From Alligator mississippiensis (lineage: Eukaryota), in assembly GCF_030867095.1 (NCBI RefSeq), contig NC_081830.1, positions 240,717 to 304,716 on the forward strand: a DNA stretch of 64,000 bases, given 5' to 3'. Shown piece by piece: positions 1-61,966 of this stretch. The position numbers and the translations under genes were made by a program. The notes beneath the pieces were generated by a model. It did no database searches. It worked only from the letters and a program-made list of their open reading frames with translations, and was not told the DNA's origin. Every line of letters starts with the position of its first letter. Position 1 is the first letter of the stretch.

Positions 1-2003
1 AATCACAGCACTCACTTTTCCCAGTGCCATATAAGGCACTCTGTACAAGTTAATTGCTTAGTTCCAGGAAGGCCTAAAGTTATGCTAAGAGCCTGAGCAT
101 AACTCAGTTTGCCCGTTACAGTGACCATTGGGCCTAATTAGTGTGGGAACAGGGAAATATTCCAGGTAAGTCTGTGCTATTATGAAGCTTCCAAAATATC
201 ATATAATGAGCTGGGCTAGCATTGATGATGCTGACATCACTAAAGGGTTAAATAGCCTAAGCAAGTGAAATCACCGTTCACTGTCGGCGGTCTGATTCTC
301 CTGCGTGGATTTCTAAGGGAAGACCAAGCAATCGGACTTGGAACAACGGCAACCCGTGAAGCTCGCCCGGCGCGGCCGACTGGGAGCACCGCCTGGGTAC
401 CAGCTGTAGCCGGACTGTGATGCGGTGGAGTCACCTTAACACGCTCAGTCTTTGGTAACTGCCTGCTTATATCCTGGCAGTCTCAGTCAAGTTGACTACC
501 TGTATTCTGGCAACCCCAGTGGATGAATTGCTTTGTGTTTAATGGATCGTTTTTTTCAGTCAATTAAGCTTCTGACTGATAATTGGACGAGTGCCGGTCG
601 TTAATTGCATAGTTCTCCTCGCCCCCAGACAAGCAGGGCTCCAGTTTCAGCCCAATAAGCCCAACGCTGAGCATGGAGCACAGCAGCATCTCCAGAATAG
701 TAAGTTTGTAAGAGTGCTAGCCCTGAACACCTCAATATTTCAAACCTTCCTGTTTCTTATAGTTCATATTCCCCTTCCAGTACCTGTTCCCCCGCCCGCT
801 GCGCCCACCACCGCGGTGCTAAGCACTGCCCAGCACAGCAGCATCAGGAAAATGGTACATTTCCAACTTTCTGTTGTCTGGCATCTATCTACTCCTTGGC
901 CCTTCAATATTTCAAACCTTCCTATTTCTTACAATTCACAGAAGTGTGACGATTAGTTGAGGTGGACGCTGCGTGCCAGCCCGTCCCTGCAGACTATGAA
1001 GCATCCCGGTTGATATAGAGGTCATACATGCCCAACGGCCTCGGGGGGGGGGGGCAGGTTTCACCATTTTTTGGTTCAAACTCAAGTTCTTTTTTCTTCC
1101 CCTGCCTACACAACACTATGGACATCAGAGAGAGAACATTTTCAATACTGATACTATTGAGAAGCCACCTTTTTTTGTTAGGGTTATAAAACTTCAGGCA
1201 TTTGAAATTGTGTCAGTTGTTTTTTCTTTCATTGATCCATCCATCCACCCACACAAAGGCAGATTGAGTTTTGGGAGTGGGTGGGGTTGGTTGGTTGGGG
1301 GAAGTGCTGGCTGCACCTGCCTTTCTCGGCCTGGGGATCCTGTGCATGTATGCAAGATAGTTTCACAAAAGACAGGAGGTCACATGAGTCAGTCGCTGCT
1401 AACAAGCGTTTATAAGGTGGGGCAGTTATAGAGTCGCGGAATTACTGGAAAGATGGGAGGTCCTACAATGCTTCCTTTACCTGCAATCCCTAAGCCAGGA
1501 TCACCTTGCTGTAAGCATTAGTCAGCCCGTCGTCCCCCACCCCCTCCACCTGTCCACCCCAGAACCGGACAGACCAGAAGAAAAGCAGCAAGCGGCGATG
1601 CTTGGCCAGGCATGCATGCAGGGAGCGTGAGTGAGGCGAGTCTCAGGGGTGGGACTGAGACCGTTCCAAGTGCTGGCCCCGCCGCCTCGAAGGGCCGGGC
1701 ACATCGGTAGGGTTCAGAGTGAATGCGCCCCAAGCTGCTCTTCCAGGGCAGCTCCGCCTGGCACGGCGTGGGGGCTCTGCCCCTCCGCTCCACGCAGCGG
1801 CGCCCTAACAGCCAGGCTCCCTGCACCCGGAGCGCCCGGCTGCCCCCGGTAGGCCGCAGAGCGAACGCTGCTAGGGGTTCTCCTTCTGCAGGAGAACCCA
1901 CCTGTCTAGAGTGGTCCCCACATACCAGCAATCCTGGAGGCCATGACGCCTCCCCACAGCTGCCCTGGCTGCCCCTGGGAACAGACAAGCTGTGACCAAC
2001 CAC

Positions 2004-2009
2004 TTTATT
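2004..2009 (-). terminator. Polyadenylation signal (AATAAA on the minus strand) for the Cys-rich membrane-protein gene.
   Basis: TTTATT on the plus strand, about 120 nt downstream of the stop at 2125. Confidence 0.4.
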
Positions 2010-2124
2010 GTGTAAAAATAATCCAAGTTACATAAAAAAACAGGGAAGGCACCAGGGTAGAGAGGGGGGGCTCCCCAAGACACCGCCCCCCCTCAAGTGA
2101 GGGGCGGAGGGGCCCCGCGCCGCC

Positions 2125-2867
2125 TCACCGGAGCTTGACCTCGAAGCAGATGCAGTTGACGCTCTGGCAGTCGGGGGGCTGGCAGGCGCAGGCGCAGTCG
2201 CACAGGGGGCAGCAGCGTGGCAGGGGGGGGCAGGGGCCCAGCTCCCAGCCCTGGGGGAGGAGGACACAGGGGGAGGGAGGGAGGAAGGGAGGGGCGTCAC
2301 CCCCACGGGCCCTGCCCCGGGCAGCCCAAGCCCCGCCTCCCTGGAGGGGCGCAGAACCACACCCCACAGGCCCCACCCGCACGAGGGGCGGCCCCCAATA
2401 AGCCCTGCCCCCCACCCTGCTTCTGGCCCCAGCCCCCCCACTCACGTGCGGCCGGGGGCAGCAGGCGTCCAGGCAGGCGAAGGGCGAGGGCAGGGGCGCG
2501 GCGCAGCACGCGGGGGGCGCCCCCAGGCCCGCGCCCTCGCACCCGCAGCGCTCGGCGCAGCCGCCCCGCGCCTGGGGCAGAGCGCAGCATTAGCAGGGGG
2601 CCGCCCCGCCCGGCCCCCGCCCCGCACCCCCACCCCCGCCCCCATTACCAGCAGCCCCTGGCGCAGGGCGAGGAGCAGCAGCAGCCCCAGCAGGTAGGCG
2701 GCCACGGCCAGCAGCACCAGGGCGGGCAGCGGCAGGGGCAGCGGCGGGTCCGGGGGCCGCGTGGGCGCGGGGGGCAGCGCCTGCAGGGACACGAAGGGGT
2801 CGGGTCGGTGTGGCGGGCGGGCGGGCGGGCGGCTGGGCGCGGGGGCCGGCGGCGCACTCACCGTCAT
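2125..2867 (-). CDS. Unassigned small membrane protein gene (~156 aa). Three coding exons at 2649-2867, 2446-2571 and 2125-2250. Pro-rich N-terminus, one TM helix (LVLLAVAAYLLGLLLLLAL), then a Cys-rich cytoplasmic tail ending CPLCDCACACQPPDCQSVNCICFEVKLR.
   Basis: ATG at 2865-2867 (minus strand). Both introns are canonical GT-AG and keep the phase. The downstream ORF 2125..2445 starts exactly at the intron-1 donor GTG. TTTATT on the plus strand at 2004-2009 is a minus-strand AATAAA about 120 nt 3' of the stop. A CpG island lies upstream (3100-3500). No family recognised. Confidence 0.4.
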
Positions 2868-3992
2868 GGCGCGGGGTCCTGCGCGGCGGTGGCGGCGGCG
2901 CCCGGGGGCTCATCGGGGCCTGGCGGAGACAAGAGCTGGGGTCCCGCCGCGCCCGCGGCCGCCACTCTGGCCGCGCTGCCCACGGCCCCCACGACGCGTC
3001 CCCGCGCGCGCGCGCTGCCCGGCCCGCGCCCAGTCACGTGCGCCCCCCGGCCCCTCGAGAGCGCGTCACGAGCGGGCCGGGCCGGCATGTGTCGCCCCGC
3101 TTGTTCATCAGCGCACCCTGCGCAGTAATAAGGTCTCATGCATAACAATGAGCGGCACCGCCCCCTCATGAATATTCATTCCCCCCCGAGCGCGCTGCTC
3201 GGTAGCACGCGCCGGGCTCCCGCTCACCCTCTCCCCGCCGCGCGGCTCCAGCACCGCCTCGCCGTCACCATGGAGACCACGCGACAACGGCCGCCGGCAA
3301 GGGTCCAATGAGAGCCGCGGCGGCTTCTCGGAAATGACGTTGCCACACGCTCTCTGCGCCGGAACTGGCTCCTTAGCACGCCAGCACGTGGGACGAAAAG
3401 AGCTTGCTAATAGGCTAGCGGTCACCGCAGCAACCGCAGATGGGGCGGGGCGAGTAGAAGCCAATAGAAGGACGGTGTTGGCGGCACATGACACAGGGCA
3501 TTGACGGAGAGCCGCTTCAGCTTATCCAAGCGCGAGGGAAGCTGCTGCCCCGCCTGCATTATACCTCTGATTGGCTGAGAGTCCTTGACCATACTGGAGC
3601 ACAGGCATATAGGGATCCCGCCGCGTCAGGCTGCTTGGCCAAGCCATTGTACGCATGCGTAGCGGAAGGTATTGGCGGAGCAGACAGCGCCTGCGCACTG
3701 CAGGACGGCAACCATGACAGCGCAACATCTGCGCTTGCGCGTTGCCAGAGGAGCAGTGTGGAGTGCGCTTGCGCACTTGTCGACCCGCATTATCCACCTG
3801 TTTTCAACAATAGGCCCGGCCTACGTTCCCCTAGCTAAGCCCTGACCTCGACTCCAGAGGGGCCAACGGTGTTGTTTGCCCCCAGCTCCATGACCTTTAG
3901 CCCCACTTTTGTGAACTGCACGTGACCGGGGCGCTCCGTGACGTCACACTAGTTAGGCGTGGCCACCACTGCTCCACCCACTCCCACGTGCC

Positions 3993-4394
3993 ATGGTGGC
4001 CTGCGCGACGCGGTGCTGGCTCCTCCTCTCCGCCCTGGCCCAGCTCCTCGGCGTGCAGGGGCGGGGCCGCACGTGGCACGCCCCGCCCCTGAACGCCAGT
4101 GTCCCGCCCCAGGCACCGCCCCCGCGCCTCTGGTTCGATTACCCCGACGACGACGCGGGCCGCGTGCGCGCCGCCTACGAGCGCCTGGGCGAGCCGCCGC
4201 GCGCCCCCCTGCCCAGTGAGCCCCGCCGCACGCCGTGCCTCGCCCCGTCCCGTCCCGCGCGGCCTCGGCCCCTGACAGCCCGCCCGCCCCTCCCTCCCGC
4301 AGACCCGCTGCCCCGCCTGCTCCGCCGCGTCACGCTGGGCGCCGCCGGCCTCGTGCTGCTGCTGCTCCTGGCGCAGGTCGTGGCGCCGCTGTAG
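3993..4394 (+). CDS. Candidate small type-I membrane protein (~130 aa). Signal peptide MVACATRCWLLLSALAQLLGVQG, NAS glycosylation site, acidic DYPDDDAG patch, C-terminal TM LGAAGLVLLLLLAQVV. One in-frame GT-AG intron is possible (about 4216-4302). Possibly a FIMP/C16orf92-like gene.
   Basis: ORF with signal-peptide plus TM architecture. The (AATAAA)n run at 4751-4783 lies 360 nt 3' of the stop. It is adjacent and convergent to TLCD3B, as C16orf92 is adjacent to FAM57B in human. No direct sequence match was recalled. Confidence 0.3.
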   Translation: MVACATRCWLLLSALAQLLGVQGRGRTWHAPPLNASVPPQAPPPRLWFDYPDDDAGRVRAAYERLGEPPRAPLPSEPRRTPCLAPSRPARPRPLTARPPLPPADPLPRLLRRVTLGAAGLVLLLLLAQVVAPL

Positions 4395-4750
4395 GTGCCC
4401 CCGTCCCCCCGGCCCGGGCCGGCCCACCTCGCCGCCCCGCCCCACCCAGGGCCGGCCCCACCCCCCTGACCCCGCTGTCCCGCAGGCTGTCCCGGCGCAC
4501 ACACGAGGCGGAGCCGGCGCTGCGGTCCTCACAAGGCTCTTTAATAGGCGCGGCCGCGCCGGCCCCACCCCTGCTGGGGGGCGCGGGGGGGGGGGGAGGG
4601 GGCGCCGCCCCTCCCCCTGCTTATTGCTACGGTGGGGGGGGCCGCCCCGGAGGGGGGGCGGGGCAGCGGGGAGGCCCCGCCCCCTCCTGCCCGGCCCCCC
4701 TCTGCCCCATGACCGCTAGCGGGCCCCGCGCCGCGGCCCCGCCCCTCTCA

Positions 4751-4783
4751 GTAAATAAATAAATAAATAAATAAATAAATACG
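4751..4783. repeat. (AAAT)n microsatellite providing tandem AATAAA polyA signals on the plus strand.
   Basis: The sequence reads aaataaataaataaataaataaataaat. Confidence 0.9.
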
Positions 4784-4829: not shown

Positions 4830-5110
4830 AATGAGGGAGGGGCGCGGCCTAACACTGTGGGCGGGGCGTGGCGGTGGGAGGGGCAGGACCCTCTCTCCGC
4901 TCGAAGGGAGGGTGTGGCTCAGACTGACCGGGGCGTGGCCTGTGCCCTGGGGGCGTGGCCTAACACTGAGGCGTGGCCTAGCACTGGGGGCGGGGTGGGA
5001 GCCAGGGCCATCTCCCCCTGGGGCGGGGCCTGTGCCCTGGAGCGGCCGTGGCTTAACACTGGGGGCGTGGCCTAGCAGTGGGTCAGCGCGGGAGAGCCGG
5101 GGCCCGCTCT
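4830..5110. repeat. Tandem array of about 58-bp units built on the motif GCGTGGCCTAACACTGRGG (about 5 copies).
   Basis: Repeated gcgtggcctaacactg / gcgtggcctagcactg / ggcttaacactg strings between the FIMP-like ORF and the TLCD3B 3' end. Confidence 0.7.
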
Positions 5111-5147
5111 CCCCGGGCGGGCGGCTCCGCCTGAGCCTGGGGCGGGG

Positions 5148-7599
5148 CTAGTCGGGGTGCGCGCGGGCGGGGCCGGCGCCCGGGCCGGGGGCTGGTGCGG
5201 CGGCGGGGGCGCGGAAGAGGCGCAGGGCCCCGCGGCAGATGAGGCCGAACCAGTAGAGCTGCGGCGCCAGGAGCAGCGCGGCCGCCGCGTTGTAGGCAGG
5301 CGGCAGCGCCAGCGGCACGGCCAGCAGCGGCAGCCCGGCGTGGCGCGCGTAGGCCCAGTACAGGTAGGGGAAGAGCAGCACGCGGCAGCAGAAGAAGGTG
5401 ACCAGCATGGCCGCGCCGTTCAGCTTGTGCAGCAGCGTGTGCTGCCGCTTGTACTGCGGGACACGCGGGTCAGTGCGGGGCCGCGGCGCGCCGCCCCCGC
5501 CCCGGCCTGGCCCGCCCCGCGCCCGGGGGGCACTCACCAGGATCAGCACCTTGCCCAGGCAGACGAAGGGCGTGCTCAGCTCGGCCATCAGCATGCAGCC
5601 CAGGAAGAAGTCGCCTTTGCCCTGGCGCCACAGCTGTGGGACACGGGGGTCAGCGCGGCCCGCATCTCCCGGCCCGGGGCTCCAGGCGTGCGGGCCGTGC
5701 TGCGGGGCGGGTGGGTACTCACGGCGGCCACGGGGAAGCAGACCAGCACCATGCAGAGGTGATGCAGCACCATGAGCAGCTCTTTGCGCAGGAAGGCGCG
5801 GGCGGCCGCCGCCAGCCCCCGGTCCGGCCCCGGCCCCGGCCCCGGCCCCGGGCCGCCGCGCGCCTGCAGCCGGCCCTTGTGCAGGTGGCACAGGAACATG
5901 GCGCCCAGGTCGTACACGAAGTAGGGCACCGCGAACTCGGGGTAGGCGCGGGCCAGCCAGTGTCTGCGGGCACAGCGCGGGCCGGGTCGGGGCGGCGGGG
6001 CCAGCCCGCCCGGGGGTGCTGGGAGCAGCCGGGGGTCACGGATCCCCGCTGCTGCCCCCGCGGTGCCCAGCAACCCCCCTTCCGCGACGCCCCGCCCCCG
6101 CCCCGCAGCCCCGCCCCGGGGCCAGGCCGTGCTGACTAGGCGGCTGCTCTGCGGGACGGGATTAGGCCGCGTGCCAGAGCCGCAGCCGGGACACTGCAGC
6201 AGCGGGGCTGCGGGGCCGAGCGGGGGGGTGGGGTGGGATGCGGGCGCAATTTTCCTACGACGCCCTGGCCCCCCTGTCCGCGGCGGGCGGGGAGGGGGAG
6301 CAGCACTCATTGTTTCCGGGCAGCGGGGGAGGGGCGGCCGGTGCAGGACCCCCCCCACAACGCCCCGCACACAGAGCGGAGCGAGGACCCAGGCGTCCGG
6401 GCAGCGCTGCTCGGCCGGCGCCGGCGAGAGCGGTGGGGATGGGGCTGGGGCCGCCGGGAGCACGGGCCTGCGGGCCCTGTCCGGTGCTGAAAGCAGCGCC
6501 GAGACTCGCCGCAGCACCACGGACAGCGGCAGCGCGGGCGCGGGCTCGGCCGGGCCTGGCTCCGGGGCCGAGGCGCGGGGTTGGGGGTCCCGGGGCCGGG
6601 GGCACTCACTGGTCATCGATGACGTGCTTGCAGGAGCTGGACACGATGTAGCCGGCCGTGGAGGCCATGACGGCCTGGATGGACGAGACCAGCCTGCGGG
6701 GGGGTTAGACGGCGTGTCCCGCACTCCCGACCCGCAGCCCCCGAGCCGGGCCGGGTGTCCCGCAGGCGCTGGGGGACGCCCCCCGGCAGGGCCCGCCCGT
6801 GCCCCTCCCCGGCCCCGCACCTGGCGGCCACGATGACGGCGTCGGGCTCGTCCCAGCGCAGCCCCGGCAGGCGCCGCAGCCCGGCCCGCGCCAGCAGGAA
6901 GAGCCCCGGGAAGAGCAGGCCCCCGGCCGCCAGCGCCCGCGGCATGGCCGCCAGGCCCGCTCAGCGGCGCGGCGGCCCGGGCCGGCGGGGGGCGCCGCGC
7001 ATGGCGGGCTGCGGCCGCTCGCACCCGGCGCCACCGAGCGAGCGGGCCGCGGGCATGGGCGGGGCTGCGGCGTCACGCAGGGGGCGGGGCAAGGGCGTCG
7101 CGGGGGGGCTGCGGGTCGGGAGTGCGGGGCACCGCTCGGGGTGGCGGTGGGGGGCGGGAGCGAGCAGCACCACTGGGGCAGGGGGTATCTGGGGTGTCCC
7201 ACAATGCCCCGGGGAGGTCAAGGTCAGGGGTGCCCCCCCGCCGCCCCAGGGCAGCGTGGGAATCCGCTCACGGCTAATCCCCGCCACACGGTGCCCCCCC
7301 AGCCCGAGTCACCCTGGAGTCACCTCGGGGGGCGCCGCCCCGTGGCTGCCCAGGGTCCTACCCCCGTCCCGCCGCGGACCCAGGTGCCCGGGCTGCCGAA
7401 ATGCCCGGCCGGGCTGAGGAGCCCTGGCCGCCCCCCGCCCCCCGCCCCGCGCCCCGGGCCTGGCGTGCGCTTACTTGGCGGCGAGGTAGGTGGCGTGCAG
7501 CGGGGGCAGGCGCAGCGGCGGGGCGCGCGCCAGGCCCCAGCGCAGCAGCACGAAGAGGCCCGGGAACAGCGCCCCCCCCGCCAGCAGCAGCAGCAGCAT
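5148..7599 (-). CDS. TLCD3B: TLC domain-containing protein 3B (FAM57B). Coding exons 5148-5453, 5538-5633, 5723-5963, 6610-6693, with alternative first coding exons 6821-6945 (MPRALAAGGLLFPGLFLLARAGLRRLPGLRWDEPDAVIVAA) or 7475-7599 (MLLLLLAGGALFPGLFVLLRWGLARAPPLRLPPLHATYLAA).
   Basis: Translation matches human FAM57B: LVSSIQAVMASTAGYIVSSSCKHVIDDQHWLARAY, FAVPYFVYD, QGKGDFFLGCMLMAELSTPFVCLGK, YKRQHTLLHKLNG, LLFPYLYWAY and LLAPQLYWF. All introns are GT-AG. The two first exons are each 125 nt and paralogous. Confidence 0.9.
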
Positions 7600-9788: not shown

Positions 9789-12700
9789 GTAACGGCGCGG
9801 CCCGGCCCCCCCCGCCCGCCGCGCCCCGGGGGGGCCGCCCCGCCCCCCCCGCCGGGAGCCCCGCGCCCCCCCCGGCCGCGCGCCGCGCCGCCCCGCCCCC
9901 CGCGTCACCGCCGCGTCACCGCCCCCCGCGCCCTCGGTAGGGACCAGGGTTAACGCCCCGCGTGTCGTGTCGTGTCGTGTCTCCCGTGCCGCCCGCAGAG
10001 CCACGCGCAGAACCCGCTGCCCGTGGGCGCCGACCTGCAGTCCCGCTTCTTCGCCGCGCCCGGCTGCGCGCAGAGCCCCTTCCAGGTACGTCCTGCGCCC
10101 GGCCCGGCCCGGCCCGGCCCCGGGGCCTCCTGCCCCCCGCCGGCTCGGGGCCGCCCTGGCCTCCCTCCCGGGCCCGCAGGGTCTGGCAGCTCTTGTGCGC
10201 GGCCGACAGGGGCCGCCCCCGCCCCCGCCTGGCGCCCTGCCGCCGCCGGGCCGCCCCTGCGGGCTGGGCCCTCGAGCCCCTGGAAGCGGGGAGCCCCTGC
10301 CGGCCAGGCCCAAGCCAGGCTGCACATTGCCCCCGCCCGCGCGGCCCCACGTGCCCCAAGGCCGCCAGCCCGCGTGGCGGGAGCAGCCGCGTGCCAAGGG
10401 GGTCCCTGAGATGAGATGCCCCCCTCTGTCATGGGGTGACCCCCCAGAACACAGGGGGCGGGGCCTCCAGCAAGGGGCGGGGCCTGACCGTGTCCCCTCC
10501 CCCACAGGCGGCGGCCGCAGCGCCACCCCCGCCCCCACCCTCGGGGCCACCTGAGGGGCTGCAGGTTGACCTGCTGCCGGTGCTGGCGGCCGCCCAGGAG
10601 TCAGCCGCCGCCGCTGCTGCCGTAGCTGCCGCCGCTGCCGCCGCCGCAGCCCAGACCCCCGCCCCGGCCCCCACCGCCGCCTCCACCGTCGACACCGCCG
10701 CCCTCAAGGCCCCGCCCCCAGCCCCACCCGCCCCGGAGCCGCCCGCCCCGCCTGCCACCGCCCCCAGCCAGGCCCCCCCCTCAGCCGCATCCGCGGCGGC
10801 CATCGCCCAGGCGCCGCCCGTGCCAGCCCCCGCCCCGGCCCCATCCGCCGAGGCGCAGAAGAAGTCGAAGAGCAAGGGCCCCTACATCTGCTCGCTCTGC
10901 GCCAAGGAGTTCAAGAACGGCTACAACCTGCGGCGACACGAGGCCATCCACACAGGCGCCAAGGCGGCCCGGCCTGCGCCCGGCGCCATGAAGATGCCCA
11001 CCATGGTGCCACTGAGCTTGCTGAGCGTGTCAGCACTGGGCGGGGAGGCGGGGCCGGCGGCGGGTGCAGGCGGCACAGGCGGGGGCCTGGTGACCACCAC
11101 AGCCTCGGGCAAGCGCATCCGCAAGAACCACGCCTGCGAGATGTGTGGCAAGGCCTTCCGTGACGTCTATCACCTCAACCGGCACAAGCTGTCGCACTCG
11201 GACGAGAAGCCCTACCAGTGCCCCGTCTGCCAGCAGCGCTTCAAGCGCAAGGACCGCATGAGCTACCACGTGCGCTCGCACGACGGGGCCGTGCACAAGC
11301 CCTACATCTGCAGCCACTGCGGCAAGAGCTTCTCCCGGTACGTGGCGCGGGCCAGGCGGGCCGGGGGGCCACGGGCGGTGCCAGGCCCTGACCCTTTTCT
11401 CTGCCCTCCGCCAGGCCAGACCACCTGAACAGCCACGTGCGCCAGGTGCACTCCACAGAGCGGCCGTTCAAGTGTGAGGTAGGCGCCACGGAGCGAGCGG
11501 GGCAGGGGCCTGGGCATGGGGCAGGGGCCTGGCGTCACCTCCCAGGCTCAGGAAGGACCCAGGTCACTGAGACTGCAGCGGGCTGTGGACCCAGACGTCT
11601 TGGGGAGCGGGAGGTCCTGGAGGCTGTTCCTAGGAGGGGAGAGGACCCAGGCATCCGGGAAGGGGCTCCCCGGGGCCTGCAGTGCAGGAGGAAGGATCCA
11701 GGTTTCGGGGCAGGCAGGTGAGGTGAAGCCCAGCACCGCTCTGACCCTGGTCCCCACGCAGACGTGCGAGGCGGCCTTCGCCACCAAGGACCGGCTGCGG
11801 GCCCACACGGTGCGGCACGAGGAGAAGGTGCCGTGTCACGTGTGTGGCAAGATGCTGAGCGCCGCCTACATCACCGACCACATGAAGGTGCACAGCCAGG
11901 GCCCCCACCACGTCTGCGAGCTCTGCAATAAAGGTGCGATGTGGCCCTGCGCCTGTCTGTGCCCTGCGCCTGCCTTGCGATCCGCGCGTCCCAGGCACCT
12001 GAGATGCAGCCGCCGCCGGGGGGGTTCTGGGGCTACCGTGCAGCCATGGCCGGGGCACAACAAGGGCCAGGATGGGCCTAGCTCTGCTCTGTGGTGCCCA
12101 CAGGCAGTGGGCACTGGGGCAGGGAGGGGGGTGCTGGCCGCCGTCCCAGCTCTGAGATGCAGTCGCACGGGGACGTGGGCCGCCGTAGCGCCAAGGCGCC
12201 ATCGGGCAGGTGCAGGGGCCGGCCAGGAGGCGCCGCCAGCCCAGGGAGCTGCCCGCGTGCTGACGGGCGCTTTTGTTCTCGCCGCAGGCTTCACCACGGC
12301 GGCCTACCTGCGGGTGCACGCGGTCAAGGACCACGGACTGGCGGCCCCGCGGCCCGAGCGCTTCCTGTGCAAGCTCTGCGGCGTGCACTGTAAGACCCCT
12401 GCGCAGCTCAACGGGCACCTGCAGACCCACGCCGAGGGCCCGGCCCCTACCCCTGCCCCCACCGAAGCCCCACCCCTGCGCTGAGGCCCCCCCACAGGCA
12501 AGGCGTCTGGGGACCCGGCCGGGTGCAGGCACAGTGCCCGGGGCTGGGGCTGGCTGCGTCTTGGGAACGGGGTGGTGCGGCTGCATCTCAGACCAGGCAC
12601 TGGACCCAGCTGTCCAAGGGATGGAGGGGTGCGCGGCTGCATCTCAGACCTGGTGGTGGACCCAGGTGTCCAAGGGGGGGTGTGGGGGTGGCTGCATCTC

Positions 12701-12895
12701 AAATGTGGCGGGCTGGTGTGGCCAGCGGCTGCTTGTAGGGCCCAGAGCAAACGGGCTCCGTGTGTCTCCACAGGTACCGGTGAGCCCTGCCCGCTGGCAG
12801 CCGCAGCGGCTGCGCCCCCAGTGTCGGCGGTGACGGTGCTGCCCATGGAGGGGGCCCCAGTGGTCAGCCAGGCCCTCCCCACCCAGCCCTGGTGA
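9753..12895 (+). CDS. MAZ: Myc-associated zinc finger protein, full CDS span from ATG to the isoform-1 stop. Seven coding exons including an alternative terminal exon.
   Basis: Near-identity to human MAZ: GPYICSLCAKEFKNGYNLRRHEAIHTGAK, ACEMCGKAFRDVYHLNRHKLSHSDEKPYQCPVCQQRFKRKDRMSYHVRSHDGAVHKPYICSHCGKSFSRPDHLNSHVRQVHSTERPFKCE, CEAAFATKDRLRAHTVRHEEKVPCHVCGKML, and the C-terminus PLPSQPW-like PTQPW. Confidence 0.96.
9999..10085 (+). CDS. MAZ: MAZ exon 2 (SHAQNPLPVGADLQSRFFAAPGCAQSPFQ).
   Basis: Matches human GHAQNPLQVGAELQSRFFASQGCAQSPFQ. Acceptor gcccgcag; donor cag|gtacgt. Confidence 0.9.
10508..11337 (+). CDS. MAZ: MAZ exon 3 (poly-Ala/Pro region plus zinc fingers 1-4).
   Basis: Acceptor cccacag; donor cg|gtacgt, phase 2. 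Confidence 0.93.
11415..11478 (+). CDS. MAZ: MAZ exon 4 (PDHLNSHVRQVHSTERPFKCE).
   Basis: Acceptor ccag|g; donor gag|gtaggc. Confidence 0.9.
11761..11933 (+). CDS. MAZ: MAZ exon 5 (TCEAAFATKDRLRAHTVRHEEKVPCHVCGKMLSAAYITDHMKVHSQGPHHVCELCNK).
   Basis: Acceptor ccccacgcag; donor aaag|gtgcga. Boundaries are ±1 nt. Confidence 0.9.
12288..12484 (+). CDS. MAZ: MAZ alternative terminal coding exon of the isoform-2 (SAF-2) type (GFTTAAYLRVHAVKDHGLAAPRPERFLCKLCGVHCKTPAQLNGHLQTHAEGPAPTPAPTEAPPLR*).
   Basis: Matches the human isoform-2 exon GFTTAAYLRIHAVKDHGLQAPRADRILCKLCSVHCKTPAQLAGHMQTH. Acceptor gccgcag. In-frame stop at 12482-12484. Confidence 0.85.
12774..12895 (+). CDS. MAZ: MAZ terminal exon of isoform 1 (GTGEPCPLAAAAAAPPVSAVTVLPMEGAPVVSQALPTQPW*).
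   Basis: Matches the human GTGEVCPMAAAAAAAA...SQPLPSQPW. Acceptor tctccacag. Stop at 12893-12895. Confidence 0.9.
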
Positions 12896-13326
12896 CCCTG
12901 CAGCACCCCTGCCCCTGGACCAACCCCCTCCCCCGCGGTCAGACACCGATGGACCGGCCTGGACCCGCCGCTGGATGACCGGACCCGTCGCAACCCAGCA
13001 CTGCCCCCCCCGCCCCCCCCATGGTGACCCGCCCGCGGCCCCCTTCATGAACTGGACTGGACACGGCCCGGCTGCAGCGCCCCTGCAGAGTGCACCCCTG
13101 CCCCCAGCCCCGGCCCTCGTGAACCAGCCCGCGCCCCCTGCCCCTCCCCCGCGGCCTGGCCTGGCCTGGCTCGGTCTGGGCTGGACGTTACCGGTTGTGG
13201 GGCTGGGCTGCCTCTGCCGGACCCGGGGTCAGCACCCCCTCGGGTTGGATCCCCCTCGTGTTTGTCCCCCGCATGCCCGTGGCGCGGCCCCTTTTGTATC
13301 GTGTCGGCGGCGCCGCAGCCGCCCTA

Positions 13327-13332
13327 ATAAAC
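13327..13332 (+). terminator. MAZ: MAZ polyadenylation signal AATAAA.
   Basis: The string ccctaataaacagg, about 430 nt 3' of the stop. Confidence 0.7.
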
Positions 13333-13539
13333 AGGATTGGTACAGCCCCGCCGCCTGCTGGGGGGGTCTGCAGGTCCAGCCTGCTGGAGGGGCAACTTGG
13401 GTGGGGCGGGGGTTTGTCCTGCTGCGGGTGGGGTAGCCTTGGGGAAGGGTGGTGGCATCCAACAGGTAATGAAGGAACCCCCCACTTGGAGCAGTGCCCC
13501 TCGCTCCCACTTCCTAAGCCCCCCCACCCGAGTGGGGCT

Positions 13540-13800
13540 CCTCGCTGCTGACCCGCAGCCCCCCCTGCCCCCAGTGGTGCTGCTCTGGGGGAGGGCTGCC
13601 CCCTGCAGCTCCCCACCGTGCCCCTCACTCCCGACCTGCAGCCCCCTTCCCCCCAGCGGTGCCCCCCCCGTGAGCGGTGCGCCCCACTCCCTCCCTGCCT
13701 GCAGCCCGCCCCCCCGTCAGCGGTGCCCCCCACTCCTGACCCGCAGCTCCGCCCCCCACGCGGTGCCCCTCAGTGCCGACCCGCAGCTTCCCCGACGGGG
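13540..13800. repeat. Tandem repeat of about 45 bp (CACTCCYGACCYGCAGCCCCC...CAGCGGTGCCCC), about 5 copies, between MAZ and PRRT2.
   Basis: Repeated strings such as ctgacccgcagcc...cagtggtgc / cccgacctgcagcc...cagcggtgcccc. Confidence 0.7.
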
Positions 13801-14149
13801 GGCGGGGGGTTGCAGCCAGCTCTGGGGAGGAGCCGGCGCTGCGCAGCGCGGGGGCGGGGCCGGGGGGGCTCGGGCTGCTGCAGGAGCCGCGCGTCTCCCC
13901 CCAGCGCCGCGGAGCCGGATAGGTACGGGGGGAGCCTGTTGCTATGGGAACGGGTGCGGGGGGGGGGACTGGGTGTGGCGGGGGGTGGGTCCCGCGTGTG
14001 CGTGTCGGCATCCCCGGACGCCCGGCTTCCCTGCTGGTACCGGCACCGGGGTCTCTCCGCCGGCGGGGCGGGGGCGGGGGCGTGCGGGTCCCTTCCAGAC
14101 ACCCGGGACCCGCGCGCCTGGGCAGTGCGGGGTGGCGGGCTCCCTCCCT

Positions 14150-14620
14150 ACCCGTGTGTGCGTGTGCATGGCTGTGTGTTCGCGGGTGGGCGCGTTCCCC
14201 CCGTGCATGTGTGAGCGCCGGTGCATGGGGCGCTGCATGGTGTGCAGGTGTCTGGGCTCCCTGCATGCGGGGGAGAGCGGGACTGCCCGCTGCTGGTACA
14301 GGTGTCCTGGTGTCTGCGCGTGTGTGCTTGTGTCTCGGCCGCTGGAGTCCAGCGGGGCTCAGGGCGTGTCTGCAGCGTGCGCGGATCGGGACTTGTACAC
14401 GCGTGTGCAACAGGGGTTGGGCCTATCCCTGTACATGGGGGCAGTGGGGCAAGCCCTGTGTGCTCGTGCACCTGGGAGGAGCCCATGTGCTTGCACACGC
14501 ATGTGCATCCCATGTACACCCAGCCGGGGCAGGCTGCAGGTGGCTGCCTCTGTCCCATGCATGCACTGGCCTGGGCGTCTGCTCTGTGCGCACACATGTG
14601 CACTGTGCAAGTGTGCATCC
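14150..14620. repeat. Alternating purine-pyrimidine (TGYGYG / GCATG)-rich low-complexity tract upstream of PRRT2.
   Basis: Many gtgtgcgtgtgc and tgcatg strings. Confidence 0.5.
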
Positions 14621-14720
14621 TTGATTTGTGCATGTCAGCAGCCCCTTGCACAAGCTTGTCACTCTCTCTCATCCCCTCCGGGGGTCACAGTCGGACAGTG
14701 ACCCCACTGTCCCCGCAGCC

Positions 14721-15155
14721 ATGTCAGCCGAGGCAGTGAGGAAGGAGGAGGACGAGGCGCCCCCAGACCCTGCGCCGCCCCCGCAGCCTCCGCCCCCCTC
14801 GCCGGGGGCCCCAGTCACCACGGAGAGCCCGGCAGAGCCGCCCGCCGCCATGCAGAACGGCGTGGGCCCCGTGAGGGCCTGCTCTGCCGAGGCACTGGCA
14901 TCCCCACCCCGGCCCCCTGGTCCCCCCCGCTCCCAGTCAGACCTGGGGGGCGGCTGCGGGGCAGGGGGCAGGGCATCTGCCCCTCCTGCGCCCTCTGAGC
15001 TGGGGCCACCAGCCCAGGAGCCAGAGCCGGAGCCAGAGCCCGAGCCGGAACCAGAGCCGGAGGAGAAGCCACGGGACTTCGTGCTGCTTGCAGCCCTGGC
15101 CTGCTTCTGCCCTGTCTGGCCGGTCAACATCATCGCTTTTGCCTACGCCATCATG
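14721..15155 (+). CDS. PRRT2: PRRT2 main coding exon ([17 protein letters not shown]...(EP)6...FAYAIM).
   Basis: ATG directly follows an acceptor-like ccccgcag, implying an upstream non-coding exon. Donor atg|gtgagc. Confidence 0.85.
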
Positions 15156-15929
15156 GTGAGCCATGAGCCTGCCCTGGCCTCATCTGCATGCAGTGTGCCC
15201 TGCACCCCAAGGCGCCTGAGCAGGAGAGTGGGGGGCATGGGCTGCCCTGGGGTGTGCAGCTTGCGGGGTCAGCTGGGGGTCAGGGGATGGACCCCGGCCC
15301 TGGTCTGAGCCGGGTGGGCACAGTCCCGCAGCTCGCTCCAGCAGGGTGACGTGGACGGGGCGCGGCGACTGGGCCGTGTGGCCAAGCTGCTGAGCCTGGT
15401 GGGGCTGGGCGCCGGGGCCCTCATTATCGCCACCGTCATCGCCATGCACCCCGGTGGTAAGTGCAGCTCCCCATCCCTGGCCCCCAAAACTCTGCCCCTC
15501 GACCTCCCAACCTTGCCCCCTGCCTGTGAGCCAAGTCCCCAGGCTCCGAACCCCCGCCCCTGGGCCTCCTAGCCCTGCCTGTGGGTCCTGAAACCCCACC
15601 CCTGGGCATCTAAATCCTGCCTCCTGCATCCTAGCCCCACCTGCGGGCCCCAAAAGCCCACCCCGTGCCTCCTAGCCCCACTTCTGCCCACAGCCCCCAA
15701 AACCTGAACCCCGCCCCCTGGGCCCTGAAACTCCACCCTTGGGTTTCCAAATCCCACCCCTTTTGCCCTATGGCTCTTAGCCCTGCCCTAAACCCCAATT
15801 CCTGCGGCCTTGGCTCCACCCCCAGACCCCACCCCTCCCTGAACCCCACCCCCCGCAGCTGAAGCGGGAGGTGGGGGGGGGGGGTCGTGCTGACCACTCA
15901 CTGCCACCTTCCCCGCAGTGTTCAAGTGA
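14721..15929 (+). CDS. PRRT2: Proline-rich transmembrane protein 2, CDS span; three coding exons.
   Basis: Pro-rich N-terminus, then a C-terminal CD225/dispanin region [67 protein letters not shown]. This matches human [53 protein letters not shown]. Confidence 0.88.
15324..15456 (+). CDS. PRRT2: PRRT2 exon ([44 protein letters not shown]).
   Basis: Acceptor cacag|tcc; donor g|gtaagt. Confidence 0.8.
15919..15929 (+). CDS. PRRT2: PRRT2 terminal micro-exon (..VFK*).
   Basis: Acceptor ccccgcag|tgttcaagtga. Human ends ..GVYK*. Confidence 0.6.
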
Positions 15930-16623
15930 GGATGACGTCACCGCCGCCCCTGCCCCCTCCCTCCATCTTCTTCCCCACTCGCCATGCCCCAGCCATCCCA
16001 CACCATGTGCCCACCCACCCCAGCCCTGCTGCATGCCCCCTCACACCTGTCCCAGCATCCACTCCTCCACACGCTCCCCCCCAACCCTGCAGGCACTGCC
16101 TTGACACCGGCCCTTGCCGCTGGTGCCAGACGGACGGACCCACAGCCTGGGGACACAGGACACGGGCTGAAGGGCCCCTTCTGCAGTTGGACGGTGGACG
16201 CGGCCCGGAACCGGGCAGGGGCAGCCAGGCCCACAGAGCCCTGCCCTTGCGGGCCTTCCCAGCCGGGGACCCGCCTTTGCACGTGTTTGGCGGCCCCGAG
16301 CCGGGGCTGCATGGCCTGCTGCATGGATCTTCCTTTTTGTAACCATGGGGGCGGGGTGGGTTTATAGCGGGGAGGGGAGGGGAGGGGAGGGGGCTGCATG
16401 GGACCTGGCCACACTTTGGGGGCTGGGTGTTCTGCCAGCTCAGAGGGGGCCATGAGGCAGGGCCAGGCTGGCTGGGGTCTTCTGCTACCCAGAAATGGGG
16501 CATTTCAATGCAAAACTAGGAGGGAGTGGGAAAGGGGGAGGCTGAGGGAGATAAACGTGTGGGGGGGGGGGGGGGCCGCACGACATGGCCGCACCTTTTG
16601 TAGCCAACGCATGAAACGAGCCA

Positions 16624-16629
16624 ATAAAC
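16624..16629 (+). terminator. PRRT2: PRRT2 polyA signal AATAAA.
   Basis: The string gccaataaactcg. Confidence 0.6.
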
Positions 16630-16745
16630 TCGTCTTGCATGAGTGCTGCGTCCGCCCGTCTGTGCGTGGGGCCGGCCCGCTCCCAGCCTGCGTCCCCCCG
16701 CTCCCGCAGGGGCACAAACCAGTCAGAGCCCCGGGGCCCAAGCAT

Positions 16746-16751
16746 GTTTAT
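16746..16751 (-). terminator. CDIPT: CDIPT polyA signal (TTTATT on the plus strand).
   Basis: The string catgtttattagg, about 300 nt 3' of the CDIPT stop. It converges with the PRRT2 3' end about 100 bp away. Confidence 0.55.
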
Positions 16752-17060
16752 TAGGAGCAGGGAGGGCAAGACCCAACCACCCCAGGGCAGTGACAGCCCC
16801 GGGCTGCAAAGGCCCCTGGGACGTGGAATGACTGCCACAAAGGATTGTGGGACGAGCAGACATGGCAGGTGCATGGGGGTGGGGGTGGCTCTAGAATAAA
16901 TATGGCTGCCCATACCCCACCCAGGACCGTGGGGAGAACGAGGACGGAACGAGGTGGCGGGACACTGGACAATGCTGCAGGGCATTGTGAGACACCGGGG
17001 GCCGGAGGCAGGAAGCGGGGGGCAAGCCCTGCCCTGCACAGCCTGGCCCCAGCCCGGGCA

Positions 17061-18185
17061 CTAGTGGGAGCGCGCGCGGCGCTCGGCGCGGTCGATGGCG
17101 GCCAGATCGCGGGAGGCCGAGACGAGGTGAACCACGTTGATGAGCGTCTTCAGCAGCGCCACGGGGGCCGAGAGCCAGAGCGCGGCGCGGAACAGACCCA
17201 GGCGTCCGGGCAGCACTGGGGGGAGAAGTCAGGTCCTGGGATGGTGCCCCCCGCCCCGCACAGCCCCGCCCCGCCCCGCCCCCCACGGCCCCGCCCCGCA
17301 CCTGTGGGCCCCTCGGTGAAGTGCAGCAGGTAGAGCAGGCAGTAGAAGAGCTCGTTGCCGGCGCACATGAGGAAGAGGAAGGGCTGCGGGGGAGGAAGGC
17401 GGTGTCAGTCCCCGGCCGAGCGGTCCCGGGCGCGGGGCGGGGCGGGGGGGGGCGGGGCTCACCCGCGAGGTGTAGTACAGCTGCAGCACCGGGTTCCCCG
17501 TCAGGGCCACGCTCTTGTGGCTGCTGCTGCCCCGCAGCACGGAGCTGGGGAGACAGGGGCCAGTGCTAAAGCGGGGCGCGCGGAGGCCCCGCCCCCGGCC
17601 CGGCCCGCCCCCGGCCCCGCCCACCTGTGCAGGTGCATCCAGTGGCTGGCCACGTCCAGGGCCATGCTGGCCTGCAGCAGCGCGGCGTGCGCCGGGTACA
17701 GCAGCGCCAGGTTCACCAGCAGGCACATGGTGGCGCAGCGGTCGGTCAGCATGTCCAGCAGCGCCCCGAAGCGCGTGCCTAGGGGACCCGGTCAGCCACG
17801 CCCACTGCGCGCGGCCCCGCCCCCGCCCCGCCCCGCGCGGCCCCGCCCCCCGCACCTTGGCCGAGCAGGCGGGCCGCGTGTCCGTCCACCGCGTCCAGGA
17901 GGCCGCTGAGCAGGTAGCAGGCGGCGGCGGGCGCGGGGGCCGTGGGCATCAGGTAGAAGGCGGCGGCGGCCAGGGCCAGGCGGGCGTATCCTACGGGAGC
18001 GCGGGTCGGCGGGCTGCCCCCGTGGTGCCCCGCGCTCCCGGCCGCAGCCCCCCGCCCCCGCCGTGCCCCGCACTCCCGCCCGTCCTCCCCGCCCCGCCCC
18101 GCCCCGCCCGCGTGGTGCCCTGCATTCCCGCCCCGCACGCACCGATGAGGTTGGGCACGAAGAGGAAGATGTTCTCGTCCTCCAT
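17061..18185 (-). CDS. CDIPT: CDP-diacylglycerol-inositol 3-phosphatidyltransferase (PI synthase). Six coding exons: 18143-18185, 17856-17990, 17625-17778, 17463-17544, 17302-17383 and 17061-17215. 216 aa.
   Basis: The protein begins MEDENIFLFVPNLIG|YARLA. It contains YLLSGLLDAVDGHAARLLGQ, GTRFGALLDMLTDRCATMCLLVNLALLYP, LDVASHWMHLH and LTGNPVLQLYYTSR, then CAGNELFYCLLYLLHFTEGP. It ends LKTLINVVHLVSASRDLAAIDRAERRARSH*. All splice sites are GT-AG and the total coding length is 651 nt. Confidence 0.93.
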
Positions 18186-18812
18186 GGCCCCCGCGGCACG
18201 GGCCCCGCCCGCTGCACGAGCTTGGCCGCACCGGACGCGGGAAGTAGGGAAATGGCCGCGGCGCCTTTAAGAGCCCGCGGATTCCGGTCCCGGCTGGGCG
18301 GGACCAAGTGCGGAGCGCGGGGGGAGAGGGAAGGAAGGAAGCTCGGGTTGTACCAAGCGGCACGGGCGCAACCATCGGCGGAGGGGCGGAGCTATTGGCC
18401 TCTTGCTGCGTCGCAGGGCTCACCCATGCTTCCCTCCGCCCTCCCCGCCCATTCCTATAGACACGCGGGGCTCCCGGACTCCCGGCATCAGGTGGCCTCG
18501 CAGCAGCCAATCAGCACGCAGGGCTAGGAGAAAGGCCACTTTCCCACAATCCTTTGTGATTGACATGGACAACCCCCCCCGACTTTTTCCCAGAAGGCCT
18601 CCGGCGGGGCCAGGCACTTTCCCACAGTGCCCTGGGGCGGTCACAGGCCCCTTTCCTAGAAGCCTATGGCAGATGTTACCCAGAATGCCTTGGTGCTGGC
18701 GCACCCCCATCCCACAATGCCTGGCGTGGCTGGCTGCAGTGTTACCCCGAATCCCACGGGCGCAGGTGGCGCACCCGGGCCAGGCCCTGGGGCTCTGAGG
18801 GAGGCGCCATGT

Positions 18813-20260: not shown

Positions 20261-20644
20261 GGCTGCGGCACAGAGGGGAGGCGTTGCGGGGGGAGGCGGG
20301 AGCGGCACACGACCCAGGTGTCCCGGGCAGGGGCGACGGGACCTAGGGAATATGGGGACCCCGGGTGTCCGCGGCGCTGTGGGGGGCTATAGGGACCCCG
20401 GGGGCTTGGGGGCGGCTCTAGGTGTCCCGGGGGCGGGAGGGGCCCGATCCTGCCCCCACCCGACTCCCGAGGCTGCGGCTCCTCCCAGGCAGCGCGGGGA
20501 ACAGAGGCGGTTGCCAGGGCGACGCGGCGGCAACGGGGGCGGGGCGGGGCCGAGGCTCCTGAATGACTCACGAGGGGTGACGTCATGGAGGTGCGAGGTT
20601 TCCCTGGTAACGACACAGGGCCCCGTGGGAGCGGGCGGAGCAGG

Positions 20645-58060: not shown

Positions 58061-58081
58061 CCCCTCCCCCTGCAGGCAGCC

Positions 58082-61879: not shown

Positions 61880-61966
61880 ATGAACGGCGCCGCGGCCGAG
61901 GCCGAGCCGGGCGGACACAAGCGGCGCTACCGGGCCCTCAAGCGGCGCCTCAAGCTGCTGGTCTAC
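61880..61966 (+). CDS. INO80E: INO80E exon 1.
   Basis: ATG at 61880; donor tac|gtgcgc. Confidence 0.9.

What the first reader, a model, noticed from the sequence alone, without database searches (positions are those of the whole stretch)
3993..4394. FIMP/C16orf92-like type-I membrane micro-protein ORF next to TLCD3B
The ORF has a predicted signal peptide, one N-glycosylation sequon, an acidic patch and a C-terminal TM. In mammals the sperm-fusion factor FIMP (C16orf92) is the immediate neighbour of FAM57B/TLCD3B. This ORF occupies the analogous convergent position and is followed by an (AATAAA)n microsatellite that would act as its polyA signal.
Basis: inference. Interest (0 to 1): 0.5.

Follow-up and report, generated by a model that had tools for sequence, protein, structure and literature searches.

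The report
Alligator copy of sperm-fusion gene FIMP
The ORF is the American alligator's copy of FIMP, a small sperm membrane protein needed for sperm-egg fusion in mice; it is a real but ordinary gene, apparently unannotated and unusually GC-shifted, from a family already catalogued in mammals, turtles, lizards, snakes and amphibians.

Summary
The 133-codon ORF at 3993-4394 (+) exists as described. Its length alone means little, because 90 ATG-ORFs of that size occur in this 64-kb GC-rich window. Homology settles the case. The window is Alligator mississippiensis, and the minus-strand neighbour at 5148-6616 is TLCD3B. The ORF carries WFDYPDDD, the counterpart of the FFDY motif by which human FIMP binds TMEM95. 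A FIMP profile built without the alligator sequence scores the spliced model at 50.5 bits (E=9e-15); the next best window ORF scores 9 bits and 5000 shuffles reach at most 4.7. Gene structure matches squirrel and terrapin FIMP: 223 nt of coding sequence, a phase-1 intron, an 88-nt TM exon, then a phase-2 donor. The FIMP(+)/TLCD3B(-) convergent layout is also the same. It reads through an in-frame 87-nt intron (4216-4302) and stops at a TAG inside the next donor site. The 3' end and expression remain unproven. RefSeq already names FIMP in turtles, squamates, a caecilian and platypus, so this is a new member of a known family. It is unusually diverged: GC3 is 97% and it falls below the Pfam threshold. 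A late pseudogene cannot be excluded.

The parts
3939..3946 (.). Perfect palindromic CRE (TGACGTCA), 54-47 nt upstream of the ATG. It is a candidate proximal promoter element.
   Evidence: Only 3 occurrences in the 64-kb window. It aligns with TGATGTCA in terrapin and TGACATCA in squirrel at a similar distance from the ATG. A role in CREM-type spermatid transcription is inference.
3993..4215 (+). First coding exon, 223 nt. It corresponds to exons 1+2 of other species fused (no intron 1) and has the Kozak context GCCATGG.
   Evidence: 223 nt equals 64+159 nt in squirrel. Terrapin has 91+126 = 217 nt. Ends in phase 1 at the donor A|GTGAGC.
3993..4061 (+). Predicted signal peptide (aa 1-23, cleavage guessed after VQG).
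   Evidence: Hydropathy, AF2 helix 3-18, and alignment with the signal peptides of mammalian FIMPs, W9 invariant. No SignalP was run.
4092..4100 (+). N-glycosylation sequon N34-A-S36.
   Evidence: Read from the sequence. Terrapin (NST), lizards (NAT), snake (NET) and caecilian (NVT) also have a sequon before the motif.
4131..4154 (+). WFDYPDDD (aa 47-54): aromatic motif plus acidic patch, the counterpart of human FFDYPDSD that docks into TMEM95.
   Evidence: F48, D49, Y50, P51, D52 and D54 are invariant in alignment A1. All non-therian orthologues have WF[DN]Y. In human FIMP, F68A, F69A and Y71A abolish TMEM95 binding (PMC13192804).
4155..4199 (+). Short ectodomain helix and the GE.P motif (AGRVRAAYERLGEPP).
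   Evidence: AF2 helix 54-64 matches the human helix at residues 76-86 in the preprint's numbering, which runs 22 above the numbering of the 110-aa form. A60, G66, E67 and P69 are invariant.
4216..4302 (+). Intron 2: 87 nt, GTGAG...CAG, phase 1, in frame and stop-free, which is why the ORF reads through it.
   Evidence: The spliced model scores as one 50.2-bit domain, against two domains (24.5 + 12.9 bits) for the raw ORF. The position and the split Asn codon are identical to terrapin. Branch-point-like CTGAC at 4272-4276.
4303..4390 (+). TM exon, 88 nt: (N)PLPRLLRRVTLGAAGLVLLLLLAQVVAP(L).
   Evidence: The exon is 88 nt in squirrel, terrapin and mouse (PMC7196805). NPLPRLL is identical to turtle FIMP. 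G87, L96, L97 and Q99 are shared with human.
4391..4485 (+). Putative intron 3: 95 nt, donor GTAGGT, acceptor ...CTGACCCCGCTGTCCCGCAG.
   Evidence: Phase-2 donor as in squirrel (AT|GTGAGA) and terrapin (AT|GTGAGT), where read-through also gives an immediate stop. This is the best acceptor by pyrimidine content and branch point. Not verified by RNA.
4486..4762 (+). Putative last coding exon. With the 4485 acceptor the tail is LSRRTHEAEPALRSSQ... (92 aa, rich in G, P and A), ending at TAA 4760-4762.
   Evidence: Other species have tails of 0-10 aa, so this model is uncertain. Alternatives: intron retention (L*) or the acceptor at 4751 (LK*).
4752..4781 (+). (TAAA)7.5 microsatellite with six AATAAA hexamers. 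It is the likely FIMP poly(A) signal.
   Evidence: Squirrel and terrapin have AATAAA about 74 and 58 nt after the start of exon 4. Use in alligator is untested.
5148..6616 (-). TLCD3B (FAM57B) 3' coding exons, convergent with FIMP. The stop codon is at 5148-5150.

Best explanation
This is the Alligator mississippiensis orthologue of FIMP (C16orf92), a type-I single-pass sperm acrosomal membrane micro-protein.

Proposed gene model (splicing inferred, no RNA data):
- CRE-containing proximal promoter at about 3939.
- Coding exon 3993-4215.
- 87-nt intron.
- 88-nt TM exon at 4303-4390.
- A third intron and a short last exon ending near the (TAAA)n repeat.

The product has a cleaved signal peptide, a largely disordered glycosylated ectodomain carrying WFDYPDDD followed by a short helix, and one TM helix.

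By analogy with the human cryo-EM structure, the WFDY aromatic motif would dock into the basic pocket on helices alpha3/alpha4 of TMEM95. That would form the TMEM95-FIMP complex that sperm need to fuse with the egg.

Shown here: orthology, exon architecture, synteny, and retention of the binding motif.

Inferred: transcription in spermatids, splicing, TMEM95 binding, and any role in alligator fertilisation.

The sequence has been driven strongly towards GC-rich codons, probably by GC-biased gene conversion, while the motif was kept.
For: Organism and neighbour:
- The TLCD3B exons are 134/134 identical to A. mississippiensis.

Homology:
- BLASTP to human FIMP ectodomain: 12/28 identical, E=3e-6.
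- BLASTP to Lepidochelys FIMP: 44% identity, E=3e-14.
- HMM of 21 tetrapod FIMPs without the alligator: 50.5 bits, E=9e-15 against 987 window ORFs. The next best ORF scores 9.1 bits and 5000 shuffles reach at most 4.7 bits.
- Reptile-only HMM: 57.7 bits.
- Even a mammal-only HMM ranks this ORF first in the window.
- FIMP is the only Pfam family hit.

Structure of the gene:
- 223 nt + phase-1 intron + 88-nt exon + phase-2 donor, equal to squirrel 64+159 | 88 and terrapin 217 | 88.
- The alignment to terrapin is gapless from LWF to the end of the TM exon, with the same split Asn codon.

Synteny:
- FIMP(+) is convergent with TLCD3B(-) in squirrel, terrapin and corn snake.

Motif:
- W47, F48 and Y50 correspond to human F68, F69 and Y71, whose alanine mutants abolish TMEM95 binding.
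- The two helix contacts that differ in alligator (F85 and I86 equivalents) tolerate alanine in human FIMP.

AF2 predicts a signal-peptide helix, a helix at 54-64 and a TM helix. A CRE-like element is conserved upstream of the ATG in three species.
Against: - No expression or splicing data. None of nine spliced isoform models exists in the 15-billion-protein collection, where only the raw ORF from a genomic-looking Logan contig is present.
- The protein scores 12.6 bits on Pfam PF17672, below the 25-bit threshold. Terrapin, snake, caecilian and even coelacanth pass it.
- Several family-conserved hydrophobic positions are replaced by Arg, Ala, Thr or Pro: KIL to RVR, [FY]IGE to RLGE, PVFF to PRAP.
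- The short C-terminal tail and stop codon of other species are not recognisable, so the 3' end is unresolved.
- A crude dN/dS of about 0.5 is saturated and uninformative.
- An intact ORF is weak evidence in DNA that is 79% GC.
- The presence of TMEM95 in alligator was not tested.
Confidence: 0.77

Rival explanations
1. It is FIMP-derived but no longer functional: a recently inactivated or decaying relic. GC-biased gene conversion is eroding it, and the open frame persists only because stop codons are rare in DNA that is 79% GC.
For: - It is an outlier in divergence: Pfam gives 12.6 bits, against 53.7 for terrapin and 27.2 for coelacanth.
- Terrapin-squirrel identity in the TM exon (58/88) exceeds alligator-terrapin identity (47/88).
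- There are 46 AT-to-GC differences against 4 GC-to-AT relative to terrapin.
- GARP residues make up 47%.
- There are radical replacements at conserved hydrophobic positions.
- The ancestral short tail and stop codon are lost.
- FIMP was not found beside TLCD3B in two birds, so loss may have occurred in archosaurs.
- There is no transcript evidence.
Against: - There are no frameshifts, stop codons or splice-site defects.
- The exon lengths of 223 and 88 nt and the intron phases are preserved exactly.
- All residues shown to be essential for TMEM95 binding are kept, together with PD.D, A..Y, GE.P, NPLPRLL and the G and Q of the TM helix.
- The perfect CRE and the good Kozak context are kept.
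- Long-standing neutrality should have produced indels.
Confidence: 0.19
2. It is a chance ORF in GC-rich DNA with no relation to FIMP.
For: There are 90 ATG-ORFs of at least 133 aa in the window. The raw ORF gave no Pfam hit and no homologue in the word-indexed search.
Against: HMM E=9e-15 with shuffles reaching at most 4.7 bits. BLASTP to turtle FIMP gives E=3e-14. Exon lengths, phases and synteny are identical to those of known FIMP genes.
Confidence: 0.01
3. The region is transcribed only as part of another unit, for example the TLCD3B 3' UTR or an antisense RNA on the minus strand, and the FIMP reading frame is not used.
For: A minus-strand ATTAAA lies at 4540-4545, about 600 nt beyond the TLCD3B stop codon. 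In corn snake the annotated FIMP and TLCD3B ranges overlap.
Against: This would not explain the conserved coding features on the + strand. Overlapping convergent 3' ends are compatible with a functional FIMP. The ATTAAA lies downstream of the FIMP TM exon.
Confidence: 0.03

Closest known systems
Mammalian FIMP (human C16orf92, mouse 4930451I11Rik; Pfam PF17672)
   Same: - Signal peptide, aromatic xFDYPD.D motif, short helix with GE.P, and a single TM helix encoded by an 88-nt exon.
- The same 223 nt of coding sequence before that exon, and the same intron phases.
- The gene lies immediately beside, and convergent with, TLCD3B.
   Different: - W replaces the first F of the motif.
- Intron 1 is absent.
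- About 28% identity overall.
- Below the Pfam gathering threshold.
- GC3 is 97% and the composition is GARP-rich.
- The upstream neighbour is not DOC2A.
- The MSFQKGA tail is not recognisable.
Turtle FIMP as annotated by RefSeq (Malaclemys XP_053881009, Chrysemys XP_042703815, Lepidochelys XP_073202444, Caretta XP_074985145)
   Same: - LWF[DN]YPDDD, A.Y, GE.P and NPLPRLL.
- The alignment is gapless from the motif to the end of the TM exon.
- Intron 2 sits in the same split Asn codon.
- RG.TW.AP follows the signal peptide.
- The Caretta model (226 aa) also appears to read through intron 2, as the alligator ORF does.
   Different: - Turtles keep intron 1 (91|126 nt).
- They have a 6-aa tail (GCRPQS or VCRMQS) and an AATAAA 58 nt into exon 4.
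- They score above 50 bits on Pfam.
- Alligator differs from terrapin at 78 of 176 aligned core and TM-exon nucleotides, 46 of them AT to GC.
Squamate, caecilian, platypus and coelacanth FIMP homologues
   Same: The WFDY.D.[DE] motif, IGE.P, a basic or His juxtamembrane pair, and Q in the TM helix. In corn snake the order is MVP(+)/FIMP(+)/TLCD3B(-).
   Different: These keep the hydrophobic helix face (KIL, [FY]IGE) that alligator has replaced.

Membership tests
FIMP (C16orf92; Pfam PF17672) | Aromatic [FW]FDY motif followed by PD.D in the ectodomain (the TMEM95-docking motif) | tested here: met
   W47-F48-D49-Y50-P51-D52-D53-D54. F, D, Y, P, D and D are invariant in A1. W is the state in all non-therian members.
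FIMP (C16orf92; Pfam PF17672) | Significant profile similarity to family members over the motif, helix and TM region | tested here: met
   HMM built without the alligator: 50.5 bits, E=9e-15. Reptile-only HMM: 57.7 bits. Controls score 9.1 bits or less. BLASTP to turtle gives E=3e-14.
FIMP (C16orf92; Pfam PF17672) | Score above Pfam's curated gathering threshold (25 bits). This is an operational criterion of a mammal-centred model, not a biological feature. | tested here: not met
   12.6 bits, E=0.13, and the only family hit. Terrapin scores 53.7, snake 50.7, caecilian 47.2 and coelacanth 27.2, all passing. The shortfall reflects GC-driven divergence. Membership rests on the other rows.
FIMP (C16orf92; Pfam PF17672) | Type-I topology: N-terminal signal peptide and one C-terminal TM helix, about 100-130 aa | tested here: met
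   Hydropathy and AF2 helices 3-18 and 106-130 in raw-ORF numbering. No SignalP or TMHMM was available.
FIMP (C16orf92; Pfam PF17672) | Gene structure: TM helix on a separate 88-nt exon, entered in phase 1 and left in phase 2 | tested here: met
   Alligator 4303-4390 is 88 nt. Squirrel 88 nt, terrapin 88 nt, mouse 88 bp (PMC7196805).
FIMP (C16orf92; Pfam PF17672) | Conserved position: immediately beside TLCD3B, tail to tail | tested here: met
   Window: FIMP(+) 3993-~4790 and TLCD3B(-) ending at 5148. The same layout is seen in squirrel, terrapin and corn snake.
FIMP (C16orf92; Pfam PF17672) | Testis- or spermatid-specific expression | not testable with these tools
   No RNA data. The only indirect hint is a conserved CRE-like element upstream of the ATG.
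FIMP (C16orf92; Pfam PF17672) | Binds TMEM95 and is required for sperm-egg fusion | not testable with these tools
   Known for human and mouse (PMC13192804, PMC7196805). Presence of TMEM95 in alligator was not checked. The literature places TMEM95 back to amphibians (PMC9482655).

The most novel reading that the evidence does not exclude
Archosaurs may offer a natural experiment on how far FIMP can be reduced or dispensed with. Crocodilians would keep a working FIMP in which extreme GC-biased evolution has rewritten nearly everything except the WFDYPD docking motif, GE.P and the TM scaffold. That would define the minimal functional core of the TMEM95 partner. Birds would have lost the gene from the TLCD3B locus altogether.
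Probability: 0.3. Interest if true: 0.45.

Novelty: new member of a known kind. Interest (0 to 1): 0.25.

Why it matters
- It adds a crocodilian, and the only archosaur seen in these searches, to the FIMP family. Standard pipelines miss it: the raw ORF gives no Pfam hit, the spliced model scores below the Pfam threshold, and no named protein for it was found among 5.8 billion clusters.
- It shows that the residues proven essential for TMEM95 binding are the ones that survive very strong GC-biased sequence turnover. This is independent evolutionary support for the recent cryo-EM interface.
- It also shows that WFDY, not FFDY, is the ancestral form of the motif.
- Otherwise it is an ordinary orthologue in conserved synteny.

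Tried and rejected
- Pfam on the raw ORF found nothing.
- PDB sequence search gave only noise, chorismate synthase at E=0.14. The deposited TMEM95-FIMP entries were not detected.
- The word-indexed protein search with the ORF found only itself.
- Look-ups of the alligator TLCD3B isoforms to fetch the annotated alligator locus failed because they are not on record. I therefore could not see whether NCBI annotates a gene here.
- tblastn with remembered human ALDOA, PPP4C, YPEL3, MAPK3, TBX6, DOC2A and CORO1A found none of them in the window. Only INO80E hit.
- tblastx of the squirrel DOC2A region against the window gave only noise. tblastx of snake MVP against window 1-3990 gave nothing. The gene upstream of FIMP in the window is unidentified.
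- The exact-match exon solver failed on the corn-snake gene.
- Nei-Gojobori dN/dS against terrapin is saturated: dS 1.13, dN 0.56.
- The bacterial promoter/terminator scan is irrelevant here.
- Rfam found nothing.
- The Deneke 2026 SPARK preprint is not held.
- The tblastn output on the swan locus was dominated by proline-rich noise. It was replaced by an HMM scan with positive controls.

Full report
**Observation.** The window carries an ATG-to-TAG ORF of 133 codons at 3993-4394 on the + strand. It has a hydrophobic N-terminus (MVACATRCWLLLSALAQLLGVQG), one sequon (N34-A-S), an acidic patch (D49, D52-54) and a C-terminal hydrophobic stretch. A perfect (TAAA)7.5 repeat at 4752-4781 supplies six AATAAA hexamers. 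These are the only canonical + strand poly(A) hexamers between 3900 and 5200. The region is 76-79% GC. ORF length therefore proves nothing.

**Source organism and neighbour.** The minus-strand ORF at 5148-5888 has a TLC domain (57.7 bits). Its best named matches are TLCD3B/FAM57B ("ceramide synthase") proteins. After removing an intron read-through, the exonic parts are 134/134 identical to Alligator mississippiensis TLCD3B, including its unique C-terminal tail. Isoform X1 maps at 99.7% identity to 6616-5720. The window is therefore American alligator or a very close relative, and the neighbour claim is correct. A Logan contig (SRR18112698) covers 2614-4617 at 99.7% identity with no mismatches. 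It is collinear with the genome, introns included, so it is not evidence of transcription.

**First homology tests were weak.** The raw ORF gave no Pfam hit, no relevant PDB hit and only itself in the word-indexed search. The human FIMP ectodomain sequence is printed in the 2026 TMEM95-FIMP cryo-EM preprint (PMC13192804). BLASTP against it gave 12/28 identities across FDYPD.D..R..A.....GE.P (E=3e-6 pairwise). That preprint shows that the FFDY motif docks into TMEM95 and that F68A, F69A and Y71A abolish binding. The alligator has WFDY at this position.

**Intron 2.** The sequence shows a GTGAG donor at 4216 and a ...CCCTCCCGCAG acceptor at 4302. This defines an 87-nt, in-frame, stop-free intron. 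With it removed, Pfam reports FIMP (PF17672) as the only family hit, though at 12.6 bits against a 25-bit threshold. A mammal-only HMM ranks this ORF first among 987 window ORFs (E=0.002).

**Gene structure.**
- The squirrel FIMP locus has DOC2A(-), FIMP(+), TLCD3B(-). Its coding exons are 64, 159, 88 and 22 nt, with introns in phases 1, 1 and 2.
- The alligator has 223 nt (= 64+159) up to the phase-1 intron, then an exon of exactly 88 nt (4303-4390), then a phase-2 donor (CT|GTAGGT).
- Mouse exon 3, which encodes the TM helix, is also 88 bp (PMC7196805).
Squirrel (AT|GTGAGA) and terrapin (AT|GTGAGT) behave the same way.
- Intron 1 is absent in alligator. The N-terminal length (46 aa before the motif, against 44 in terrapin) leaves no room for a hidden intron.

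**Wider family.** An exhaustive profile search (alignment A1) found 65 proteins. The divergent ones carry WFDYPD. RefSeq names them "fertilization-influencing membrane protein" in:
- turtles (Malaclemys, Chrysemys, Lepidochelys, Caretta);
- squamates (Sceloporus, Pantherophis, Crotalus, Zootoca, Podarcis);
- platypus and marsupials.

RefSeq names the caecilian (Geotrypetes) protein only "C16orf92 homolog". Unnamed homologues occur in Varanus, a frog and coelacanth. The literature had already placed FIMP beyond mammals by PSI-BLAST (PMC9482655). No bird or crocodilian appeared.

**Decisive test.** A FIMP HMM built from 21 tetrapod sequences, excluding the alligator, scores the spliced model at 50.5 bits (E=9e-15). 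A reptile-only HMM gives 57.7 bits. The next best window ORF scores 9.1 bits, and 5000 shuffles reach at most 4.7 bits. The unspliced ORF splits into two weaker domains, which supports the intron. BLASTP to Lepidochelys FIMP gives E=3e-14. From LWF to the end of the TM exon, alligator and terrapin align without gaps, with intron 2 in the same split Asn codon and NPLPRLL identical. The terrapin and corn-snake loci show the same FIMP(+)/TLCD3B(-) arrangement. Upstream lies MVP in snake and an unidentified 844-residue gene in terrapin. Orthology is settled.

**Predicted architecture.** AF2 on alignment A1 predicts a signal-peptide helix (3-18), a low-confidence loop containing WFDY, a helix at 54-64 and a confident TM helix. 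The 54-64 helix matches the human helix that packs on TMEM95. Upstream of the ATG there is a perfect CRE (TGACGTCA, 3939-3946), one of three in the window. It aligns with TGATGTCA in terrapin and TGACATCA in squirrel. CREM-dependent CREs in proximal promoters are typical of spermatid genes (established knowledge), so this hints at testis expression. It is inference only.

**How the alligator copy differs.**
- GC is 79%, GC3 is 97%, and GARP residues make up 47%, against 29% in terrapin and 26% in squirrel.
- Relative to terrapin there are 46 AT-to-GC differences against 4 in the opposite direction.
- Terrapin is closer to squirrel than to alligator in the TM exon.
- Terrapin, snake, caecilian and even coelacanth pass the Pfam threshold that alligator fails.
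- Conserved hydrophobic positions have become Arg, Ala, Thr or Pro: KIL to RVR, [FY]IGE to RLGE, PVFF to PRAP.

In human FIMP, F85A and I86A still bind TMEM95 like wild type. The changed helix contacts therefore need not abolish function.

**Unresolved 3' end.** The best acceptor (4485) gives a 92-aa tail rich in G, P and A that ends at TAA 4760-4762 inside the repeat. Other options give L*, LK* or 10-12-aa tails. Other species have tails of 0-10 aa and an AATAAA 58-74 nt into exon 4. None of nine isoform models is present in the protein collection.

**Verdict.** The gene is a new, apparently unannotated and strongly GC-shifted member of a known family.
- Function as a TMEM95 partner in sperm is inferred, not shown.
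- A recently decaying copy remains possible (about 0.2).
- A chance ORF is excluded.
- Interest is modest.

Noticed in passing
L002 (Cygnus olor, TLCD3B at 10001-12129) and L005 (Phaenicophaeus curvirostris, TLCD3B at 10001-21037): No FIMP-like ORF lies within 10 kb either side of TLCD3B in two bird assemblies. The best HMM scores are 5.6 and 1.2 bits, against 60-70 bits in terrapin, squirrel and snake controls. In swan a kinesin gene follows TLCD3B. No bird protein appeared among the 65 family hits. Birds may have lost FIMP, or it may lie elsewhere or be unassembled.
   Followed up: partly
P0260-P0286, P0270: WFDY is the state in platypus, turtles, squamates, caecilian and coelacanth, whereas FFDY is restricted to marsupials and eutherians. 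The first aromatic residue of the TMEM95-binding motif therefore changed from W to F in the therian stem. The coelacanth protein LOC106705789 passes the Pfam FIMP threshold (27.2 bits), so the family predates tetrapods.
   Followed up: partly
P0284 (Pelobates cultripes, 310 aa): A frog protein annotated "signal-regulatory beta-1-like" has an Ig-like N-terminal part fused to a FIMP-like C-terminus (FFFDYPDSD...FIGEEP...TM). It is either a real domain fusion or a merged gene model.
   Followed up: no
window 4540-4545: TTTAAT on the + strand reads as ATTAAA on the minus strand, about 600 nt beyond the TLCD3B stop codon. It is the only canonical minus-strand poly(A) hexamer between 3900 and 5200. 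If TLCD3B uses it, the two convergent transcripts would overlap by about 250 nt.
   Followed up: no
window 4931-5121 and 4576-4602: A 94-bp unit repeated 2.1 times, rich in GGCGTGGCC(TAACACTG) motifs, lies between FIMP and TLCD3B. A 27-nt G-rich run lies inside the putative FIMP last exon or 3' UTR.
   Followed up: no
window 58052-58456 (+), 61916-63637 (+), 32963-36232 (-), 45134-45511 (+): Other genes in the window:
- PAGR1 (PAXIP1_C domain, 68.5 bits).
- INO80E exons.
- TAO-kinase exons, presumably TAOK2 (Pkinase 34.9 bits).
- A KCTD13/BACURD-like C-terminal exon, recognised from memory only.

The gene order differs from human 16p11.2. DOC2A, ALDOA and PPP4C were not detected.
   Followed up: partly
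window 28000-30000: An AT-rich island (GC 35-40%) with CA/TG-type simple repeats sits in an otherwise 65-80% GC window, within the span of the TAOK2-like exons (25.9-36.2 kb). It may be a repeat insertion in an intron.
   Followed up: no
window 5720-6616 (-): The 431-aa alligator TLCD3B isoform X1 maps as one uninterrupted 299-aa block (99.7% identity). This GC-rich N-terminal extension looks like an intron-retaining or over-extended gene model.
   Followed up: no
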